From positions 53,181 through 117,180 of the forward strand of contig JAVKHQ010000005.1 of NCBI GenBank assembly GCA_031459875.1: DNA of 64,000 nt. The letters run 5' to 3'. The notes beneath the pieces are model-generated. The model made no database searches and was not told where the DNA came from. It was given only the letters and a program-made list of their open reading frames with translations. Origin of the DNA: Candidatus Fervidifonticultor sextus. Its GTDB lineage: Bacteria > Sysuimicrobiota > Sysuimicrobiia > Sysuimicrobiales > Humicultoraceae. The translations under genes and the position numbers were made by a program. This document shows positions 619 through 45,803 of the stretch, piece by piece (positions within the stretch are counted from its first letter, which is position 1; each line of letters starts with the position of its first letter).

Positions 619-1893
619 GTGAGCGTTGACGTGCCGATCGCAGAACTGGAGGCCAAGACCCTGACAGAGCTCCAGGACATGGCCAAGGAGCTCAACATCC
701 CCAACTACCGGCGGTACCGGAAGCAGGAGCTGATCATGCGCGTGCTCCAGGTGCAGACCGAGGCCGCGGGGCTGCTGATCCGCTCGGGCATCCTGGAGAT
801 CATGCCCGAAGGGTACGGGTTCCTGCGGACCAACGGCTACCTGCCGGGCAACGAGGACATCTACGTGTCGCCCTCGCAGATCAAGCGGTTCGGCCTGCGG
901 GTGGGCGACGAGGTGCTGGGGCAGGTCCGGCCGCCCAAGGACAACGAGAAGTACTTCGCGCTGCTGCGCGTGGAGGCGGTCAACGGGCTGGACCCCGAGC
1001 AGGCGCGCACGCGTCCCGGTTTCGAGCAGTTGACGCCGGTCTTCCCCCACGAGCGCATCAAGCTGGAACTGCCCGAATCCGACCTCACCGTGCGGGTGGT
1101 CGATCTGTTCTCGCCCATCGGCAAGGGCCAGCGCGGCATGATCGTCTCGCCGCCCAAGGCCGGCAAGACCACGCTGCTCAAGAAGATCGGGCAGTCCATC
1201 GTCCAGAACCACAGCGAGATCTATCTGATGGTCCTGCTCCTCGACGAGCGGCCGGAAGAGGTTACCGACATGCGCCGCTCGGTCGAGGCGGAGGTCATCG
1301 CCAGCACCTTCGACCGCGCCCCCGAGGAGCACATCCAGGTGGCCGACCTGGTCCTGGAGCGCGCCAAGCGTCTGGTCGAGGGCGGCCGGGACGTCGTCAT
1401 CCTGCTGGACTCCCTGACGCGCTTCTCCCGCGCCAACAACCTGGTCATCCCGCCGTCGGGCCGCACGCTGTCCGGCGGCCTGGATCCCGCGGCCCTGCAC
1501 CGGCCGAAGCGGTTCTTCGGCGCGGCCCGCAAGATCGAGGAGGGCGGGAGCCTGACCATCATCGCCACGGCCCTGATCGACACCGGCAGCCGGATGGACG
1601 ACGTCATCTACGAAGAGTTCAAGGGCACTGGCAACATGGAACTGCACCTCAACCGCAAACTGCAGGAGCGCCGGACCTTCCCGGCCATCGACATCAAGAT
1701 GTCGGGCACGCGGCGCGAGGAGCTGTTGCTCACCGACGAAGAACTGCGCAAGGTCTGGGTGCTGCGCAAGAGTCTGGAGCAGCTCGACACCGTGGCCATG
1801 ACCGAGCTCATCCTGGACCGCCTGCGCAAGACCCCCAACAACGCGGCGTTCCTGCGGTCGATCGTCAAGAGCTCGGAGGAGAACGGCGCCTAA
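619..1893 (+). CDS. rho: Transcription termination factor Rho
   Basis: [46 protein letters not shown]. Confidence 0.98.
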
Positions 1894-5148: not shown

Positions 5149-5733
5149 CTAGTGCCTGAGCAGCTGACGGACGTCGTGTGCCACGTCGGCCGCGGTGGCC
5201 TCGTGGCTCACATTCAGACGCCAGCGTCCCTCCCGGTCGATGACGGGGACGTTCGTCGAGTGCGCTATGAGGTACCCCGCTGCGCTGTTGCGTACCGGGA
5301 CCTTCTGGAACGCGGCGCCGAAGAATCGGTAGGTCGCGGCCAACAGATGCGGGGGGCCTGTCAGACCTACGAACTCGGGGCTGAACAGACGGAGGTACCG
5401 GTCGAGGAACGCCGGGGTGTCAACCTCGGGGTCGAGCGTGATGAACACGAAGCGGACTCGCGCGGCGTCCGTCCCCAGTATCTTGGCGACGTCCCGGAAC
5501 ATCCCCAGGGTGAGCGGACAGACGTCCGGGCACCTGGTGTAGCCAAAGAAGACCAGGACGACGCGCCCCCGTTGCTCGGCGAGGTTGAACGGCCGCCCGT
5601 GCTGGTCGCTCAGCACGAGCCTCGGGACCGGGCGCGCAGGGTCGAGTTCGCGGGCTCGGAAGCTTGGGCGGTGGCACGCGGAGAGGAGCAGCACGGCCAA
5701 GCCGCTGGCGATCCATCTGATCCATCGGGCCAT
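5149..5733 (-). CDS. SCO1/SenC family lipoprotein, copy 1
   Basis: Lipobox LSAC, FGYTRCPDVCP, TLDPEVDTP, conserved His in IAHS. Confidence 0.93.
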   Translation of the reverse strand: MARWIRWIASGLAVLLLSACHRPSFRARELDPARPVPRLVLSDQHGRPFNLAEQRGRVVLVFFGYTRCPDVCPLTLGMFRDVAKILGTDAARVRFVFITLDPEVDTPAFLDRYLRLFSPEFVGLTGPPHLLAATYRFFGAAFQKVPVRNSAAGYLIAHSTNVPVIDREGRWRLNVSHEATAADVAHDVRQLLRH

Positions 5734-5828
5734 AACTAGCCTCCCGCGAAAGGTGTCTACCACGACGCCGCACCGCAACACGCCGGGAGTCGACGGCGTG
5801 GAGTGGCGGGCCGCAGTGGTGAGTCGGA

Positions 5829-6344
5829 TTAGGCTGGGCGGTGGGCTCGAGGCGGAGGGTCCGGAACGGGGAGGGGGATGGGCATGAGGCCCGGCGAGAC
5901 CGGGCGGGCGACCCGTTCGGTCGGCGGTGGCGCTCCCGGCATCACTGTCGCTGGCGCCGTGGCGACGGCCAGGCCCGAGACGCTGAGGACCTGCGCGCCA
6001 TGGGCGGTCCCGGGAAGGACGGACACGACACGCGGCAGTTCAGAAATTCGTCGGCTGCCGTGCGGGGGCCACGCCGCGCTCTTCCCGTTCTCACCATGAT
6101 GTCCGGGGGATCCGCGCTGCCGGTCGTGGCCGTGGCGACGGTGGTGGGCGAGCGCGTCGGCGCGCTGCGCAGGCGTACCGCCGATCACCACGTGCAGGTG
6201 GTACGGGTCGCGCTCCACCGCCTGCGTGTCGGCGACCGGGACGATCAGTCGCAAGACCATCGCCGGCAACGCAACCGCGGCCACAACCAGGAACGGACCC
6301 GGACGGCTTGAGCGATCTGCCGGCGCCGCGCGACATGGGAACAT
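5829..6344 (-). CDS. His-rich putative leader protein ending VPDPPPR, copy 1
   Basis: Hydrophobic segment, ERDPYHLHVVIGGTP..ALAHH, C-terminal PDPPPR; paralogous to 32883-33401 and 35201-35680. Confidence 0.8.
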   Translation of the reverse strand: MFPCRAAPADRSSRPGPFLVVAAVALPAMVLRLIVPVADTQAVERDPYHLHVVIGGTPAQRADALAHHRRHGHDRQRGSPGHHGENGKSAAWPPHGSRRISELPRVVSVLPGTAHGAQVLSVSGLAVATAPATVMPGAPPPTERVARPVSPGLMPIPLPVPDPPPRAHRPA

Positions 6345-31657: not shown

Positions 31658-32167
31658 TCAGGGCGCCGCCATTCGCACCGGCACCCGGACCGCCACCGCC
31701 CCGGCCTGCTCGAAGTGCAGCGTCGCTGTGAACCGATCCCCCTCCCGAAGGTCGCGCTTGAGGCCAAGCAGCATGATGTGGAGGCCGCTTGGCCGCAGCG
31801 TCACCCGGCCGCCCGCGGGCACCACAATAGCCGGCAGCTTGTGCATGCGACTCATGCCGCCCTCCATGCGCGTCTCGTGGAGCTCCACGGCGGCGGCAAC
31901 GTCGGTCTCGGCACGCACCAGACGATCACCCCTCGGTCCGGTGTTGTGGATGGTCATGTAGATCGCCGACGTGCCGGGGCCCATGGCCATGGTGGTCCCG
32001 TGGGCACCGGCGGGAGCCGCGATGCCTGGCCGCGCCTAGGCGTCCTCGATGCGGATAGGCGAGGCCGGCGGCGCCGCTTCGCTGGCAGCGATGGCGGCCA
32101 TGAACACCACTGCGGTGAAGAGGGCCGTGCCTCGCAGCCACGAGATTCTCAAGCACATCAAGTCCAT
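31658..32167 (-). pseudogene. PCu(A)C copy 2 with in-frame TAG at 32036-32038
   Basis: IRIEDA*ARPG versus IRIEKAWARPG in copy 1; SD and signal peptide intact upstream. Confidence 0.8.
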
Positions 32168-32216
32168 ACTCATCACTCCTTTCCAGCCCGCACCAATGCC
32201 AAGTCGGGCGTCGAGC

Positions 32217-32792
32217 CTAGTGCCGCAACAGCTGCCGGATGTCGTGTACCAGGTCGTCCGCGGTGGCCTCGTGGCTCAGATTCAGACGCCAGCGGCCCTG
32301 CCGGTCGATGACGGCGATGTTCGCCGAGTGCGCCACGAGGTACCCCGCCGCGCTCTTGGGCACCGGGACCTTCTCGAACGCCGCGCCGAAGAATCGGTAC
32401 GTGGTGGTCAGTGCGTCCGGGGGGCCCGCCAGGCCCACGAACTCCGGATGGAACAGCCGCAGGTACCGGTCGAGGAACGCCGGCGTGTCGATTTCCTGGT
32501 CCACCGTGACGAATACGAAGCGAACCCGTGCGGCATCCGCCCCGAGCCTCTCGGCGACCTGGCGGAAGACCCCGAGTACGAGGGGGCAGACATCCGGGCA
32601 CCGGGTGTACCCGAAGAAGATCAGGACGACCCGACCCCGCTGCCCGGCCAGGTTGAACGGGTGCCCATGTTGGTCGGTGAGCGTGAGCGCCGGCACCGGA
32701 CGGGGAGGATCGAGCACGCGGCCCCGGAAGGTCGGGCGCTGGCAGGCTGAGACCAGCAGCACCAACAGGCCGACGGCGATCCATCTGGACAT
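32217..32792 (-). CDS. SCO1/SenC family lipoprotein, copy 2
   Basis: Lipobox VSAC, FGYTRCPDVCP, VAHS; close paralog of 5149-5733. Confidence 0.93.
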   Translation of the reverse strand: MSRWIAVGLLVLLVSACQRPTFRGRVLDPPRPVPALTLTDQHGHPFNLAGQRGRVVLIFFGYTRCPDVCPLVLGVFRQVAERLGADAARVRFVFVTVDQEIDTPAFLDRYLRLFHPEFVGLAGPPDALTTTYRFFGAAFEKVPVPKSAAGYLVAHSANIAVIDRQGRWRLNLSHEATADDLVHDIRQLLRH

Positions 32793-32882
32793 GGGTGACC
32801 TCCCTCGAAAAGCGTTCAGCGCGGCACACGTCACGGCGTCCCCGCCGATGGGGCGGAGCGCGGGCCGCAGTGACCTCGGTGA

Positions 32883-33401
32883 CTAGGCGAGAGGGTCTGG
32901 TCGGGGCGGGGGATCCGGGACGGGAATGGCGACCCGGGCGACGCGCGGCGGGGCCAGACCTGCGATCTGTCCGGTGGCCCGGGGGGCGGGGGGCCCCGCA
33001 GGCGCCGCCACCGTTGCGACCGACAGGCCGGTCGTGCTCAGGACCATCGCGCCCGAGGCAGTCCCGGGAAGGACCGACACGACGCGCGGGACTTGGGGGT
33101 CGCCCTGGGCCATTCGTTGGGTCTGCCCCCCGCCCGTCCAGTGTCGTCCCGGATGTCCGGCGGAGCCGTGCGGTCTGTCGTGGTCGTGGTGACGGTGGTG
33201 GGCGAGTGCTTCAGCGCGCTGCGCGGGGGTGCCGCCGATGACGAGATGCAGGTGGTAGGGATCGCGCTCCACCGCCTGCGTGTTGGCGATGGGCAGGATC
33301 AGCCGCGCGATGGTCACCAGCAACAGGCCCGTGCCCGCAGCCTGGCGTGGCGACGAGCGATCCCAGCGGGCGACCAATGTCGCGCGAGGCACGAGCATCA
33401 T
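32883..33401 (-). CDS. His-rich putative leader protein ending VPDPPPR, copy 2
   Basis: ERDPYHLHLVIGGTP..ALAHHRHHDH, VPDPPPRPDPLA; TATAAT at 33415-33420 on the minus strand. Confidence 0.8.
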   Translation of the reverse strand: MMLVPRATLVARWDRSSPRQAAGTGLLLVTIARLILPIANTQAVERDPYHLHLVIGGTPAQRAEALAHHRHHDHDRPHGSAGHPGRHWTGGGQTQRMAQGDPQVPRVVSVLPGTASGAMVLSTTGLSVATVAAPAGPPAPRATGQIAGLAPPRVARVAIPVPDPPPRPDPLA

Positions 33402-33530
33402 GCTGTACCCGCTCATTATAGTCGGTCGCCGCACCAGCGTGCAACGCACAGAGGGGAGGAGAGGGGCGGACGCACCCGGGGAAGTCACGTCCCGTCGCCG
33501 GGAGAGATCGCGGCAGGTCGCGTGAACTCG

Positions 33531-34445
33531 TTAGCGCGTCTTCAGGTAGCGGAGAAGCCCCAGCGCGCTCAGCCGCGTGGACATGATCGTCTCGAACCGG
33601 GCCACGCGGTCTGGCCCGTCGAGCCGGGCGGCTTCGACCGCCATCACGTGGCGCATCCGGCGCGCGATCGCGTCTTCATCAGCGCCGTCCTCCAGGGCCA
33701 CGCGGACCAGTTCCACCGCCGCGTGCAGGCGCTGCTGCAACTGCGCCAGCAGCTCCTCGACCCAGGTGTGCGCGCCGAAGTGCGTCAGCAGGAGCCGCCG
33801 CGCTCCAAGCCCCTGCAGGCGCCCGATGGTGGCATCCCACGCCGGGACGTCGAGTTCGGGGGGTGGGGTCGGGGGGCGGACGTAGCGGGATCCCGGCAGC
33901 GCCACGCCGGCCGCGTCCCCGGTGAAGAGGTCCCCGGAGGCGCGATCGAAGTAGACGACGTGATGACGGGCGTGGCCGGGGGTATCGAAGACGGCCAGCC
34001 GACGCGACCCCAGCAACACCTCCGCCCCCTCGCCGATGACGCGGATCCGCTCGTGGGGCACCGGGGCCACCTCGCCGAAGAGCCGCTCCAGGTCCGCGCC
34101 GTACAGCCGCCGGGCGCTGGCCATCAGCCGCGAGGGATCCGCCAGGTGGGGCGCGCCCACCGGGTGCACGTAGACCTCCAGATGCGGGAACCGACGCACG
34201 AGGACGCCGGTGGCGCCCGCATGGTCCAGGTGAATGTGGGTCACGGCCAGGGCCTGGAGGTCTTCGGGCTCCACCCCCGCGGCCCGCACGCTCTCCAGGA
34301 GGGTCTCCACGGTAGACGCCGGCCCGGTCTCGATCAGGGCCGGCCGGTCGCCCGTCAGCAGGTAGGCGCCGATGGCCTGCGGGGTCCCTTCGTAGTCGGT
34401 GTCAATCAGAACGAGATCGTCGGCCAGGCGTTCGATGCGCGGCAT
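33531..34445 (-). CDS. MBL-fold metallo-hydrolase
   Basis: THIHLDHAG, TPGHARHH, FTGDAAG, LTHFG. Confidence 0.92.
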   Translation of the reverse strand: MPRIERLADDLVLIDTDYEGTPQAIGAYLLTGDRPALIETGPASTVETLLESVRAAGVEPEDLQALAVTHIHLDHAGATGVLVRRFPHLEVYVHPVGAPHLADPSRLMASARRLYGADLERLFGEVAPVPHERIRVIGEGAEVLLGSRRLAVFDTPGHARHHVVYFDRASGDLFTGDAAGVALPGSRYVRPPTPPPELDVPAWDATIGRLQGLGARRLLLTHFGAHTWVEELLAQLQQRLHAAVELVRVALEDGADEDAIARRMRHVMAVEAARLDGPDRVARFETIMSTRLSALGLLRYLKTR

Positions 34446-35200: not shown

Positions 35201-35680
35201 GTGGAGGACCGGCGGCTGATGGAGGCTGCACGTTGCGCCAGGGCGGCGGCCGTGGTCACGCGCCCGGTCCGAACGTCTCTGCTCCCCGTGTTCCTGGTCA
35301 TCGTCCTTCTTGGTGCTTTCGATCCGGGTGCGGGGGAGCGGGGTCCTTCGCACGCACACATCGTAATCGGTGGCACCCCGGACGAGCAGGCGCGAGCCCT
35401 CGCTGCCCATTTGCGGGGCGCGCACTCGTCGGCCACCTCCCACGCCTGGCATGTGCTCTTCCGGGCCTCCGACGAGGCGACAGACCACCCCCACGTGATC
35501 TCCATCAGCACGGGTGCGGTCGGTGCCTCCGTCCTCGGAGTCGGCGACGGGACCATGGTGGCCGCGCCCGCCAGCCGGGTGCCCCGCGCACCGCTGTCCG
35601 GCCGGGTTGTGCCCCTGCAGTCCGCGGCGCCGGCCGAAGCCGATCGGACCGTCCCTGATCCGCCTCCTCGCCTCACCTGA
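35201..35680 (+). CDS. His-rich putative leader protein ending VPDPPPR, copy 3
   Basis: TM segment, ERGPSHAHIVIGGTP..ALAAH, VPDPPPRLT; start may be 35219. Confidence 0.75.
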   Translation: MEDRRLMEAARCARAAAVVTRPVRTSLLPVFLVIVLLGAFDPGAGERGPSHAHIVIGGTPDEQARALAAHLRGAHSSATSHAWHVLFRASDEATDHPHVISISTGAVGASVLGVGDGTMVAAPASRVPRAPLSGRVVPLQSAAPAEADRTVPDPPPRLT

Positions 35681-35781
35681 ACCGTCCGGCTACACACATG
35701 GCACGCTGGCGGACGGGCATCGCCCCCGGAGGTCGTGGTCCCGCCTGCGGGTCGATGCCCAGATCATGGGAGGTGGGCACT

Positions 35782-36216
35782 GTGAGAAGGCAGCTCCTTG
35801 TGCTGGCCCTGTGCGTCCCCCTGACCCTGGGCGTCATCGCGCCAGCCGTTCTCGGTCACCAGACGAAGGTGGTGGGCGGCAAGTACCGGGTAATCGTGGG
35901 GTTTGTCCGGGAGCCCGCCTTCACCGATGAGCGCAACGGCCTGGACCTGATCGTGCGCCGGGTTGAAGACAATGCCCCCGTGGAGCACCTCGAACGCAGC
36001 CTCTCGGCCGAACTGATCGCCCCAGGAGGCCAGGGCAGGCGGGCGCTGCGGCTTCGGCCGCAGTTCGGCCGGCCCGGCTACTACACCGACGACTTCATCC
36101 TGACCCGTCCGGGTGTCTACCAGATCCGCGTGTGGGGCGTCATCGCTGACGTGCGCTTCGACGAGACGTTTGAGTCCCATGAGGTCAGGCCGCTCAGTGA
36201 GTTGCGGTTTCCGTAG
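35782..36216 (+). CDS. Secreted protein with predicted mature N-terminal His (copper-operon associated)
   Basis: ggaggt SD plus GTG, signal peptide then HQTKVVG; adjacent to copC. Confidence 0.75.
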   Translation: MRRQLLVLALCVPLTLGVIAPAVLGHQTKVVGGKYRVIVGFVREPAFTDERNGLDLIVRRVEDNAPVEHLERSLSAELIAPGGQGRRALRLRPQFGRPGYYTDDFILTRPGVYQIRVWGVIADVRFDETFESHEVRPLSELRFP

Positions 36217-44606: not shown

Positions 44607-45803
44607 CTAGCCCCTGCGCCGCGGCCCCGCCACCAGGCGCGCCAGGGCAGCGGCCAAGAGGATGTCCCGCGCCGGCAGCACGCCGCTCACCACGCCCAGC
44701 AGGGCCCGGATCAGCGTCGGGTCGTCCGCCAGGCGGCGGAAGAGCGCCGCGGCCAGGCGCGGCCGTCTGACGATCCACTGGAGGAGGCGGCTCGTCTGCC
44801 AGGTGTCGCGGAAGGCGGCGCGGCGCGCGCGCTCGTAGGGCGCCAGCGCCGCCTGTGAGGCCGGACCTCCCCGCAGGGCGCCGTCTGCGGCGTCTGAGGC
44901 CAGTTCGGCCCCGCGCAGCGCCAGCGCGATCCCCTCTCCGGTCATGGGGTCGATCGGGCCGGCGGCGTCGCCGACGAGCAGCAGGCCGTCGCCGACCGCG
45001 GGTCGGCGGACGTGGCCGAGCGGGCCCACCGCGACGAACGGCGACAGCCGCCGGGCTCCGCGCACGATGCCGCGCAGGACCGGCAGACCGTCGCACAGGG
45101 CGTGGAAGAGGGCTGCGGGATCCCGACCCGCGCGCCGGAAAAGCGTCCGCGGCGCGGCCACCACGACGTTGCCGAATCCGCCGCCGTAGAGGGCTGCGCC
45201 GGCATACCATCCCCCTCCCAGGTGCAGGTCGCCCCTGGGGACCGGGGCCTGAAGCCCCTCGAAGTGGGCGCCGACGGTGTAGCGGACGTCGGCCGGTGAG
45301 GCCAGCGGGCCGCAGTGCCGCGCCACCACGGAACGGATGCCGTCGGCGCCGACGACGAGGCGGGCGGCGAGACGTAGGGTGCGCCCGCGGTGCCTTCCGG
45401 TCACCGCCGGCATCACCCCCGGTGTGACCCGGTCCACCCGGAATTCTTCGAGCACCAGGGCACCGGCTGAGGCCGCCGCGGACAGCACCGCATGGTCGAG
45501 GCGCTCGCGGGGGATCAACAGGCCGCGGCCCGACGGGAACGGCACCCAGGCCGCGGTCCCGTCGGGGCCGGCGAGGAACATGCCCGACAGCGACGTCCCG
45601 CCCGAGGCGACCGACCGGGCGATCCCCATCCGATCCAGCGCCGCGACCGCGGCGGGGTTCAGGTACTCGCCGCACGGCTTGGGCCGGGGGAACCTGGCCC
45701 GGTCCACAACGACGACGCGGTAGCCGCGGCGCGCCAGCAGCAGCGCCGTGGCGCTGCCTGCCGGCCCGGCGCCGACCACCAGCACGTCAGCGTCCGGGCC
45801 CAT
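44607..45803 (-). CDS. FAD-dependent oxidoreductase (geranylgeranyl reductase/halogenase-like)
   Basis: VVGAGPAG, FPRPKPCGE, GADG, VGDAAG..DP.TGEG. Confidence 0.9.
   Translation of the reverse strand: MGPDADVLVVGAGPAGSATALLLARRGYRVVVVDRARFPRPKPCGEYLNPAAVAALDRMGIARSVASGGTSLSGMFLAGPDGTAAWVPFPSGRGLLIPRERLDHAVLSAAASAGALVLEEFRVDRVTPGVMPAVTGRHRGRTLRLAARLVVGADGIRSVVARHCGPLASPADVRYTVGAHFEGLQAPVPRGDLHLGGGWYAGAALYGGGFGNVVVAAPRTLFRRAGRDPAALFHALCDGLPVLRGIVRGARRLSPFVAVGPLGHVRRPAVGDGLLLVGDAAGPIDPMTGEGIALALRGAELASDAADGALRGGPASQAALAPYERARRAAFRDTWQTSRLLQWIVRRPRLAAALFRRLADDPTLIRALLGVVSGVLPARDILLAAALARLVAGPRRRG

What the first reader, a model, noticed from the sequence alone, without database searches (positions are those of the whole stretch)
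32793..33401. Leader copy 2: anti-SD after PPPR differs in step with the SCO Shine-Dalgarno
Seen: just after the CCC-CCG-CCC-CGA (PPPR) codons the mRNA reads gacccucucg (32888-32897), which can form 10 pairs (one G-U, one bulge) with cgagggagguc over the SCO SD (32797-32807). Copy 1 has agcc/ggcu where this copy has gacc/gguc, so the pairing is kept while the sequence differs. Both spacers share cactgcggcccgc and an inner GC hairpin. The protein carries HHRHHDH. Inference: the RBS-occluding structure is under selection and lies within the footprint of a ribosome stalled at PPP.
Basis: partly seen in the sequence, partly recalled or inferred. Interest (0 to 1): 0.8.

Follow-up and report, generated by a model that had tools for sequence, protein, structure and literature searches.

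The report
CutF-like copper sensor gene before SCO1
The gene in front of this copper-chaperone gene encodes a small histidine-rich membrane protein that ends in the same PPPR ribosome-pausing motif as the published copper sensor CutF, and its last codons pair with the next gene's ribosome-binding site, so it is most likely another example of that known switch in a protein family no database yet recognises.

Summary
The 10-pair helix exists (gacccucucg 32897-32888 with cgagggagguc 32807-32797) and is in the MFE fold. At this locus alone it is not beyond chance: fold z +0.67, and 68% of same-genome background pairs have a duplex energy as good. The copy 1/copy 2 "in step" argument fails. The two helices use non-homologous registers, and swapped partners pair as well as matched ones.

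Across the family the idea holds. The upstream gene is not a short leader but a conserved ~150-170-aa protein with an N-terminal TM helix, an invariant HxH and a C-terminal [DE]PPPR plus 2-3 residues (137 of 150 representatives have PPP in the last 25 residues). It sits about 80-110 nt upstream of SCO1, CopC or CopD genes.

The downstream SD is predicted to pair with the PPP-to-stop region in 20 of 24 loci, against 61 of 300 background genes and 11.5±1.7 of 24 after synonymous recoding. Matched partners beat mismatched ones (p=1e-4; the reversed control does not).

This matches the published CutF (PPPRL-stop, EF-P, SD-shielding stem-loop) and CruR systems. Pfam DUF2946 does not detect the family, which uses His instead of Cys.

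Verdict: a new His-type variant of a known mechanism. Regulation is inferred, not shown.

The parts
32886..33401 (-). Gene X copy 2 (172 aa from the first ATG; stop TAG at 32883-32885): a His-rich single-pass membrane protein and candidate CutF-like nascent-chain sensor
   Evidence: ORF and translation. No Pfam or NCBIfam family. 159 representative relatives at E<=1e-3.
33285..33350 (-). Predicted N-terminal transmembrane helix or signal anchor (residues 17-38 of the 171-aa form)
   Evidence: AlphaFold2 helix 17-38 with block pLDDT up to 95. A hydrophobic 18-aa window before HxH is present in 102 of 115 relatives.
33225..33263 (-). Conserved DPYHLHLVIGGTP motif with the invariant HxH (H49, H51): the putative metal-binding site
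   Evidence: Invariant columns in the 20-sequence alignment A2.
33180..33200 (-). HHRHHDH histidine run
   Evidence: Read from the sequence.
32901..32915 (-). GAT CCC CCG CCC CGA, the D-P-P-P-R codons: the conserved C-terminal pausing motif. GAUCCCCC is also an alternative anti-SD.
   Evidence: PPP is invariant in A2. PPP lies in the last 25 aa in 137 of 150 representatives, followed by R in 117. The RNAalifold consensus pairs these codons with GGG.AGGUC.
32888..32897 (-). Anti-SD of the finding (gacccucucg), at +13..+22 from the first base of the Pro2 codon
   Evidence: MFE. Ensemble P 0.79-0.80.
32808..32882 (-). Spacer with a long irregular GC hairpin, including the 13-mer CACTGCGGCCCGC (32860-32872) shared with copy 1
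   Evidence: 4 of 27 consensus pairs carry double changes. No Rfam match. No terminator-like site in the spacer.
32797..32807 (-). SCO1 ribosome-binding region cgagggagguc (core GGGAGG at 32799-32804)
32220..32792 (-). SCO1/SenC copper chaperone gene, the candidate regulated gene
   Evidence: PF02630, E 1.3e-35.
5832..6344 (-). Gene X copy 1 (ends ...VPDPPPRAHRPA; PPPR codons at 5848-5858). A 95-nt spacer follows, then SD GGGAGG at 5740-5745 and the SCO1 ATG at 5733.
35201..35677 (+). Gene X copy 3 (ends ...VPDPPPRLT; PPPR codons at 35660-35670). A 101-nt spacer follows, then SD GGGAGG at 35768-35773 and GTG at 35782 of a secreted protein of unknown family that precedes CopC and CopD.

Best explanation
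Gene X (32886-33401, minus strand) is a functional counterpart of the copper-responsive upstream regulators CutF and CruR.

Inferred mechanism: the protein is made with an N-terminal membrane anchor or export signal, so its HxH/His-rich part reaches the periplasm while the C-terminal [DE]PPPR is still being synthesised. The ribosome pauses on PPP, only 3-6 codons before the stop. In the free mRNA, the C-rich codons from D-PPP to just past the stop pair across a roughly 90-nt hairpin-containing spacer with the G-rich Shine-Dalgarno of the next gene (here SCO1). A ribosome sitting on the last codons of X takes that strand away and opens the SCO1 ribosome-binding site. The length of the pause would then set SCO1/PCuAC translation. 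By analogy the pause is modulated by metal binding to the exported nascent chain and by EF-P.

Shown here: the motif, its position, the gene context, the predicted pairing and its conservation beyond composition.

Inferred: pausing itself, its dependence on copper, and the sign of the response.
For: 1. Protein family. 22 of 94 genomes of the phylum have a relative, and there are 159 representatives at E<=1e-3 among 1.84 billion proteins. PPP lies within the last 25 residues in 137 of 150, is followed by R in 117, and has 3 residues (72) or 4 residues (30) after it. PPP, H49 and H51 are invariant in 20 aligned sequences.

2. Ruler-like spacing. The RVxSV strand lies 56-59 residues before PPP in 58 of 69 sequences.

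3. Context. The next gene matches SCO1 at 6 of the 24 loci, CopC at 3 and CopD at 1 (20 of the 24 were scanned; 4 were not). The spacer is 76-109 nt in 17 of 24 loci.

4. RNA.
- P(SD core paired with D-PPP..stop+9) is >=0.5 in 20 of 24 loci, against 61 of 300 background genes (Fisher 6e-10, and 17 of 20 after dereplication).
- The synonymous-codon null gives 11.5±1.7 of 24, and mean P is 0.754 against 0.447±0.056. The duplex z is -4.2.
- Matched against mismatched partners gives p=1e-4 (n=26); the reversed-SD control gives p=0.90.
- The middle Pro codon is CCU, giving CCUCC, in 15 of 30 loci, against 54 of 571 Pro codons in the same genes.
- 6 of 7 later-fetched loci behave the same way.

5. 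Precedent.
- CutF ends P109EPEGPPPRL118; PPP->PAP abolishes regulation; an efp deletion mimics copper; a stem-loop shields the cutO SD (preprint 10.1101/2025.02.05.636593: outline, Introduction, part 1 of 2 of Results, Discussion).
- DUF2946 genes head operons with Sco, PCuAC, YcnI and CopC (PMC9426467, passages).

6. EF-P is encoded in this genome.

7. A language-model search places X nearest, among named clusters, to CzcI, a listed CutF-like protein (score 0.93; a lead only).
Against: No experiment or expression data exist for this family.

At this locus alone the pairing is statistically unremarkable.

In this copy the main helix begins at +13, so a ribosome held on PPP would barely melt it, whereas a terminating ribosome would. 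Copy 1's pairing becomes diffuse when 30 nt of upstream context are added. Four of 24 loci (L006, L007, L014, L018) show no such pairing.

PF11162 does not match any of 20 members at E<=10, and matches none of the 94 genomes of the phylum. X has no cysteine, is longer than the 150-aa limit used for CutF-like proteins, and has a conserved core with a confidently modelled C-terminal block (pLDDT 91). It may therefore be a stable protein with a job of its own.

Loci are phylogenetically related, so the p-values overstate independence. Background genes came from one genome and a crude gene caller.
Confidence: 0.6

Rival explanations
1. Plain structure-mediated translational coupling. Every ribosome that finishes X opens the SD-occluding helix, so SCO1 is simply translated in proportion to X. 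PPPR is a structural or interaction motif of a stable periplasmic His-rich copper protein, and no metal-dependent pause is involved.
For: In copy 2 and its orthologues (L005, L037) the partner lies at +13..+30 and is fully covered only by the terminating ribosome. The SD partner falls within -12..+12 of the terminating ribosome's P site in 18 of 30 loci, against 15 of 30 for the PPP-stalled one. X has a conserved core, and its C-terminal block is modelled at pLDDT 91.
Against: This does not explain why PPP is invariant and fixed 3-4 residues from the C-terminus in 102 of 137 proteins. It also does not explain the fixed 57-residue spacing. The same PPPR end is the experimentally required stalling element of CutF. 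CCU enrichment puts the anti-SD on the PPP codons themselves in about half of the loci.
Confidence: 0.2
2. CruR-type control. A ribosome paused near the end of X shields the spacer from Rho. When the pause is relieved, Rho terminates transcription before SCO1. The SD pairing is secondary.
For: Rho is encoded, in this very window. A long spacer after the uORF-like gene is also typical of cruR loci (162 nt; PMC9426467, passages). One locus (L041) has a C-rich, G-poor spacer (C 0.40, G 0.16).
Against: Spacers are on average as G-rich as they are C-rich (0.33 and 0.33) and are strongly structured, unlike rut sites. CruR uses RAPP and is EF-P-independent, whereas X carries CutF's PPPR. The RNA-level selection found here is specifically for SD pairing.
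Confidence: 0.1
3. By-product. Proline codons are C-rich and strong SDs are G-rich, so the pairing is an accident of a proline-rich C-terminus next to a strong SD and has no function.
For: Synonymous recodings of the same peptides still give P>=0.5 in about 11.5 of 24 loci, against 20% in the background. The window's own copies have duplex z scores of about 0. The fold z-scores are unremarkable.
Against: The real sequences exceed every one of 25 synonymous replicates: 20 against a maximum of 14, and mean P 0.754 against a maximum of 0.555. There is a matched-partner advantage that the composition control does not show. Some helices are perfect over 12-13 bp and extend well beyond the SD core (L013, L015, L021).
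Confidence: 0.1

Closest known systems
CutF of Rhodobacter capsulatus (cutFOG operon). Ozturk et al. 2021 (PMC8456105, search listing only); 2023 (PMC9973294, passages); preprint 10.1101/2025.02.05.636593 (outline, Introduction, part 1 of 2 of Results, Discussion)
   Same: N-terminal export signal. A periplasmic metal-binding motif. The C-terminus ends in PPPR plus 1-5 residues before the stop (CutF: GPPPRL). The spacer to the next gene is short, under about 100 nt. A stem-loop hides the next gene's SD. The next gene is a periplasmic copper protein. EF-P is present in the genome.
   Different: X has HxH and His runs and no cysteine, where CutF has CxxxC. X is 140-170 aa, against 118 aa for CutF. 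X probably has a TM anchor rather than a cleaved signal peptide. X is not matched by PF11162. Its target is SCO1/PCuAC or CopC/CopD, not a multicopper oxidase. In about half of the loci the anti-SD is the PPP codons themselves (CCUCC) rather than an intergenic element. Nothing has been tested experimentally.
CruR (Bp2923) of Bordetella pertussis, the type member of DUF2946 (Roy et al. 2022, PMC9426467, passages)
   Same: First gene of operons that contain Sco, PCuAC, YcnI or CopC genes. [quoted passage not shown] The spacing between an upstream conserved element and the arrest motif is tightly conserved (45 aa in CruR; 57 aa from RVxSV in X). A long structured intergenic region follows. The protein is predicted to be poorly structured.
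   Different: CruR has CXXC and RAPP. Its regulation is Rho-dependent, independent of EF-P and independent of the signal peptide. Copper relieves its arrest.
SecM, MifM and VemP monitoring substrates, and the RAPP-type arrest peptides (PMC7897499, PMC10987492, PMC10951233: search listings and abstracts only)
   Same: An exported or membrane-inserted upstream protein whose C-terminal arrest exposes a sequestered SD of the next gene.
   Different: Their downstream genes encode Sec or YidC machinery, their arrest motifs are not polyproline/EF-P type, and they sense translocation activity rather than a metal.
mgtP leader of Salmonella mgtCBR
   Same: Three consecutive Pro codons whose slow translation switches an mRNA structure.
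   Different: It is a short cytoplasmic leader peptide and acts by transcription attenuation rather than by SD unmasking.

Membership tests
CutF-like proteins (operational criteria of Ozturk et al. 2023, PMC9973294) | N-terminal export signal | tested here: met
   Prediction only. AlphaFold2 gives a helix at 17-38. A hydrophobic 18-aa window (Kyte-Doolittle >=1.6) precedes HxH in 102 of 115 relatives, with basic residues before it. Whether it is a cleaved signal peptide or a TM anchor was not decided.
CutF-like proteins (operational criteria of Ozturk et al. 2023, PMC9973294) | [quoted passage not shown] | tested here: inconclusive
   HxH (H49, H51) and H68 are invariant in 20 sequences, and His runs are present. 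There is no cysteine in copy 2 and no binding data.
CutF-like proteins (operational criteria of Ozturk et al. 2023, PMC9973294) | [quoted passage not shown] | tested here: met
   The three window copies end DPPPR plus 2-5 residues. 137 of 150 representatives have PPP in the last 25 residues. Of the 13 without it, 10 have an xPP[R/E/T] motif in the printed tail (8 within the last 15 residues), and 3 (P0072, P0092, P0142) have none.
CutF-like proteins (operational criteria of Ozturk et al. 2023, PMC9973294) | Length under 150 aa | tested here: not met
   The window copies are 159-172 aa. The family median is 151 aa, with a 5-95% range of 125-185.
CutF-like proteins (operational criteria of Ozturk et al. 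2023, PMC9973294) | Same-strand downstream metal-homeostasis gene, mostly under 100 nt away | tested here: met
   SCO1, CopC or CopD is next door at 10 of the 24 loci; 20 of the 24 were scanned and 4 (L007, L017, L019, L023) were not. Spacers are 76-109 nt in 17 of 24 loci.
CutF-like proteins (operational criteria of Ozturk et al. 2023, PMC9973294) | Stem-loop shielding the downstream SD | tested here: met
   Prediction only.
CutF-like proteins (operational criteria of Ozturk et al. 2023, PMC9973294) | Copper- and EF-P-dependent stalling that controls the downstream gene | not testable with these tools
   Needs reporter, toeprint or ribosome-profiling experiments. Here only the presence of efp was shown.
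Pfam DUF2946 (PF11162) | Match to the family HMM above 23.7 bits | tested here: not met
   0 of 20 members match at E<=10. There is no hit at the X genes in the window's own genome. 0 of 94 genomes of the phylum match.
Pfam DUF2946 (PF11162) | CXXC motif and C-terminal RAPP motif about 45 residues apart (Roy et al. 2022) | tested here: not met
   X has HxH and PPPR. The spacings are 106 residues (HxH to PPP) and 57 residues (RVxSV to PPP).
Sec/YidC monitoring substrates (SecM, MifM, VemP) | Downstream gene encodes a component of the protein-localisation machinery | tested here: not met
   The downstream genes are SCO1, CopC, CopD or unknown secreted proteins.
Rfam RNA families | Covariance-model match in the spacer | tested here: not met
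   0 matches at E<=1 in 32700-33000.

The most novel reading that the evidence does not exclude
A histidine-based family, not detectable as DUF2946, has arrived independently or by very deep divergence at CutF's PPPR arrest end, and uses it to gate translation of the cytochrome-oxidase copper chaperones SCO1/PCuAC and of CopC/CopD in a little-studied phylum.

In about half of its members the arrest codons are dual-coding. The codons GA(Y) CCN CCU CCN both encode the pause peptide and form a near copy of the 16S anti-SD tail (the 16S tail sequence is recalled, not from a call). That stretch sequesters the next gene's SD, so the paused ribosome hides the repressor strand inside its own mRNA channel. 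A fixed 57-residue ruler couples the pause to metal-dependent events on the exported part of the chain.
Probability: 0.35. Interest if true: 0.65.

Novelty: new variant of a known kind. Interest (0 to 1): 0.5.

Why it matters
If the mechanism holds, the recently described control of gene expression by an exported nascent chain that senses copper would reach beyond DUF2946 and Proteobacteria. It would extend to an unannotated His-type family, and to the genes that load copper into respiratory oxidases.

It would also give a compact natural design in which the stalling codons and the anti-SD are the same nucleotides. That design is directly testable with synonymous recoding and is useful for synthetic translational switches.

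Practically, about 160 clusters now labelled 'hypothetical protein' would gain a candidate function and a defining signature: a TM helix, HxHxVxGG, RVxSV, a 57-aa spacer, and [DE]PPPRxx at the C-terminus.

Tried and rejected
- Whole-region fold stability as evidence: rejected. The z-scores are +0.67 and -0.31.
- Duplex energy at this locus against the genome background: unremarkable, at the 68th percentile.
- Copy 1 against copy 2 compensation: rejected by the swap test and by the difference in register.
- Known RNA family in the spacer: none.
- Intrinsic terminator in the spacer: none. The only terminator-like hit lies inside the SCO1 gene.
- Sigma-70 promoter scan of 32600-33600: none found.
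- Pfam and NCBIfam for X: nothing.
- The search for related loci with the 20-sequence alignment found no usable conserved stretch. With a 7-sequence alignment it returned only 5 genome loci, of which 4 were already held, and 4 metagenome loci.
- A search of 401 genomes of a second phylum found only 3 with a relative. Only 9 candidates per genome were scored, so sensitivity was low.
- A profile-profile comparison with DUF2946 or CzcI could not be made, because no alignment of those families could be obtained with the tools.
- The structure search in the ESM Atlas gave only TM-scores of 0.30 or less. No fold search of the AlphaFold2 model was attempted, because pTM was 0.38.
- The supplements of PMC9973294 (its list of CutF-like proteins) were not opened, so I cannot say whether some members of this family are already in that list.

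Full report
OBSERVATION

On the minus strand the mRNA reads ...GTC CCG GAT CCC CCG CCC CGA CCA GAC CCT CTC GCC TAG. A 90-nt spacer follows, then cgagggaggucaccc and the ATG of a SCO1/SenC gene. The helix is present in the MFE and centroid structures of a 161-nt segment. HHRHHDH is there (33180-33200). The 13-mer CACTGCGGCCCGC is shared with a second copy at 5806-5818; a third hit at 45305 lies in unrelated sequence.

IS IT MORE THAN CHANCE AT THIS LOCUS?

Not demonstrably.
- The segment folds no better than its dinucleotide shuffles: z +0.67, with 150 of 200 shuffles as good. Copy 1 gives z -0.31.
- I compared the 25-nt SD regions of 600 SD-bearing long ORFs of the same genome with a 42-nt window at the same upstream distance. 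The mean duplex energy was -20.7 kcal/mol, and 68.5% were as good as or better than copy 2's -17.9.
- Recoding the peptide DPPPRPDPLA with synonymous codons gives the same duplex energy, -18.0±2.8.
- A more specific statistic is the ensemble probability that the SD core pairs with the stretch from the Asp codon to 9 nt past the stop. It is 0.80 for copy 2, which 8% of background genes reach and 3 of 25 synonymous recodings reach. That is suggestive only.

THE 'IN STEP' ARGUMENT

This does not hold for copy 1 against copy 2. Copy 2's partner occupies codons R+2 to R+5. Copy 1's AGCC lies over the last two codons, 8 nt further downstream, so these are different helices and not one helix with compensatory changes. 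Swapped partners pair as well as matched ones: matched -16.2 and -17.9, swapped -16.8 and -16.1 kcal/mol. With 30 nt of extra upstream context, copy 1's SD pairing becomes diffuse.

WHAT THE GENE IS

It is not a short leader. The window holds three paralogues (32886-33401 minus, 5832-6344 minus, 35201-35677 plus), 35-50% identical, each with no Pfam or NCBIfam match. These are the only three in the genome.
- Relatives occur in 22 of 94 genomes of the phylum.
- A profile search of 1.84 billion representatives found 159 proteins at E<=1e-3.
- A word-indexed search found 14 proteins. Those that carry a source name are called 'hypothetical protein', and none has a Pfam domain.

The family has these features:
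- A hydrophobic N-terminal helix (AlphaFold2 residues 17-38; present in 102 of 115 relatives).
- An invariant HxH inside DPYHxHxVxGGT, followed by a helix and variable His runs.
- A strand RVxSV.
- The C-terminal motif [DE]PPPR followed by two or three residues.

Among 150 representatives, 137 have PPP in the last 25 residues. R follows in 117, and 72 and 30 have exactly 3 and 4 residues after PPP. Of the 13 without PPP, 10 have an xPP[R/E/T] motif in the printed tail and 3 have none. The distance from RVxSV to PPP is 56-59 residues in 58 of 69 sequences, although the intervening sequence is poorly conserved. The model is of low overall confidence (pLDDT 67.7, pTM 0.38).

CONTEXT

Copies 1 and 2 precede SCO1 and then PCuAC. 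Copy 3 precedes a secreted protein of unknown family, then CopC and CopD.

Of the 24 loci with a usable downstream gene, 20 were scanned against Pfam. The next gene matches SCO1 at 5 scanned loci (L001, L002, L005, L009, L022); L023, which was not scanned, carries a close copy of L022's gene by sequence. It matches CopC at 3 loci and CopD at 1. At the other 11 scanned loci it reaches no Pfam family's cut-off. The spacer is 76-109 nt in 17 of 24 loci.

FAMILY-WIDE RNA EVIDENCE

In the MFE structures of many loci the SD pairs with one of three things. One is the PPP codons themselves, as in L013 (CCACCUCCACGC with GCGUGGAGGUG) and L015 (13 bp). Another is the codons after PPPR. The third is the stop codon plus a few bases, as in L021 (12 bp).

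Quantitatively:
- P(SD core paired with D-PPP..stop+9) is >=0.5 in 20 of 24 loci, against 61 of 300 background genes. After dropping four near-duplicates it is 17 of 20 (Fisher 5e-9).
- Part of this comes free with a proline-rich end. Synonymous recodings give 11.5±1.7 of 24. No replicate of 25 exceeded 14, and mean P is 0.754 against 0.447±0.056.
- Summed duplex energies give z -4.2 for 24 loci and -4.6 for 20. The effect is driven by L013, L015, L019, L020 and L021, while the window's own copies sit at z of about 0.
- Matched anti-SD/SD partners are better than mismatched ones: -19.4 against -16.9 kcal/mol, n=26, p=1e-4. With reversed SD regions (same composition, same GGAGG core) the advantage disappears (p=0.90). 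The GC contents of the two sides are uncorrelated, r=0.04.
- The middle proline codon is CCU, which creates CCUCC, in 15 of 30 loci (12 of 26 after dereplication). Among Pro codons of the same genes CCU is 54 of 571.
- Of seven loci fetched after the statistic was fixed, six reach P>=0.5. One of those six is a near copy of L012. In the seventh the partner lies 3-11 nt upstream of my window.
- Loci are related by descent, so these p-values overstate independence.

GEOMETRY

Take a PPP stall to have Pro2 in the P site. In copy 2 the finding's helix then spans +13 to +22. P of pairing is 0.01 within -12..+12 and 0.79 at +13..+30. The paused ribosome therefore touches only the edge of the helix, and a ribosome on the stop codon covers it fully.

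RNAalifold on copy 2, its orthologues L037 and L005, and copy 1 instead takes the D-P-P codons (GAYCC.CCC) as the consensus partner of GGG.AGGUC. In this subgroup the D-P codon pattern occurs twice: GAU CCC CC and GAC CCU CUC here, and GAC CUC CCC in L037. There are therefore two alternative anti-SD copies, one inside and one just ahead of a PPP-paused ribosome.

Over all 30 loci the SD partner lies inside the PPP-paused footprint in 15, inside the terminating footprint in 18, and inside either in 24. The inner hairpin has only weak covariation support: 4 of 27 pairs carry double changes, and the covariation term is -0.5.

COMPARISON WITH THE LITERATURE

A full-text search led to the CutF/CruR work.
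- CutF of Rhodobacter capsulatus is Sec-exported. It binds copper through CxxxC in the periplasm and ends P109EPEGPPPRL118. It stalls at PPP: PPP->PAP abolishes regulation, and deletion of efp mimics copper. [quoted passage not shown] It acts through Rho. Its homologues head operons with Sco, PCuAC, YcnI and CopC (PMC9426467, passages).

Family X reproduces this architecture point by point, and its C-terminal PPPR is CutF's. However, PF11162 matches none of 20 members even at E<=10, nothing at the X genes in the genome, and none of the 94 genomes of the phylum. X has His instead of Cys and is longer than the 150-aa filter used to define CutF-like proteins.

A language-model search places it nearest, among named clusters, to CzcI (0.93), which PMC9973294 lists as CutF-like. 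That is a lead, not a test. EF-P and Rho are both encoded. A further search for copper, stalling, Sco1 and PCuAC found no paper describing this family. I did not open the supplementary lists of PMC9973294.

CONCLUSION

What is new:
- The carrier: an unannotated His-type family outside DUF2946.
- The targets: SCO1/PCuAC and CopC/CopD in this phylum.
- The frequent use of the PPP codons themselves as the anti-SD.
- The 57-residue ruler.

Pausing, copper dependence and the sign of regulation are inferred.

Noticed in passing
window 31658-32176 (minus strand): The PCuAC gene behind SCO1 copy 2 is split into two ORF pieces. A 46-aa N-terminal piece (32036-32176) resembles the start of copy 1's PCuAC. 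A 110-aa piece (31658-31990) carries the PF04314 domain. This suggests a frameshift or stop, or a sequencing error.
   Followed up: partly
window 35782-36216 (plus strand); also L020 and L025: The gene after X copy 3 encodes a secreted protein of about 144 aa with no Pfam or NCBIfam match. It contains a motif VIVG(F/M)VREPxFT(D/N)ERNGLDLIVR. The motif recurs in the gene next to X at L020 and L025, so it may mark an unannotated copper-associated family upstream of CopC/CopD.
   Followed up: partly
window about 634-1863 (plus strand): The transcription termination factor Rho gene of this genome lies in the same window (TIGR00767, E 4e-195).
   Followed up: no
window 33402-33420 (minus strand): A TATAAT hexamer lies about 14 nt upstream of the first ATG of X copy 2, and there is no obvious SD. 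The mRNA could therefore be leaderless or have a very short leader. The consensus promoter scan did not call a promoter there.
   Followed up: partly
L013, L015, L040 and others (D-PPP codons): The codons GAU CCA CCU CC(N) of several family members resemble the 3' tail of 16S rRNA (the anti-SD) with one extra C. That would let them pair with any extended SD of the GGAGGUGAUC type. The 16S tail sequence is recalled, not taken from a call.
   Followed up: partly
L017 and L008, L010, L014, L016, L025: Several relatives were reported with one in-frame stop. This is simply the natural stop just after PPPRxx, which lies inside the profile match. In L017 the gene downstream of X is cut short after 10 codons, possibly by an assembly error.
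   Followed up: no
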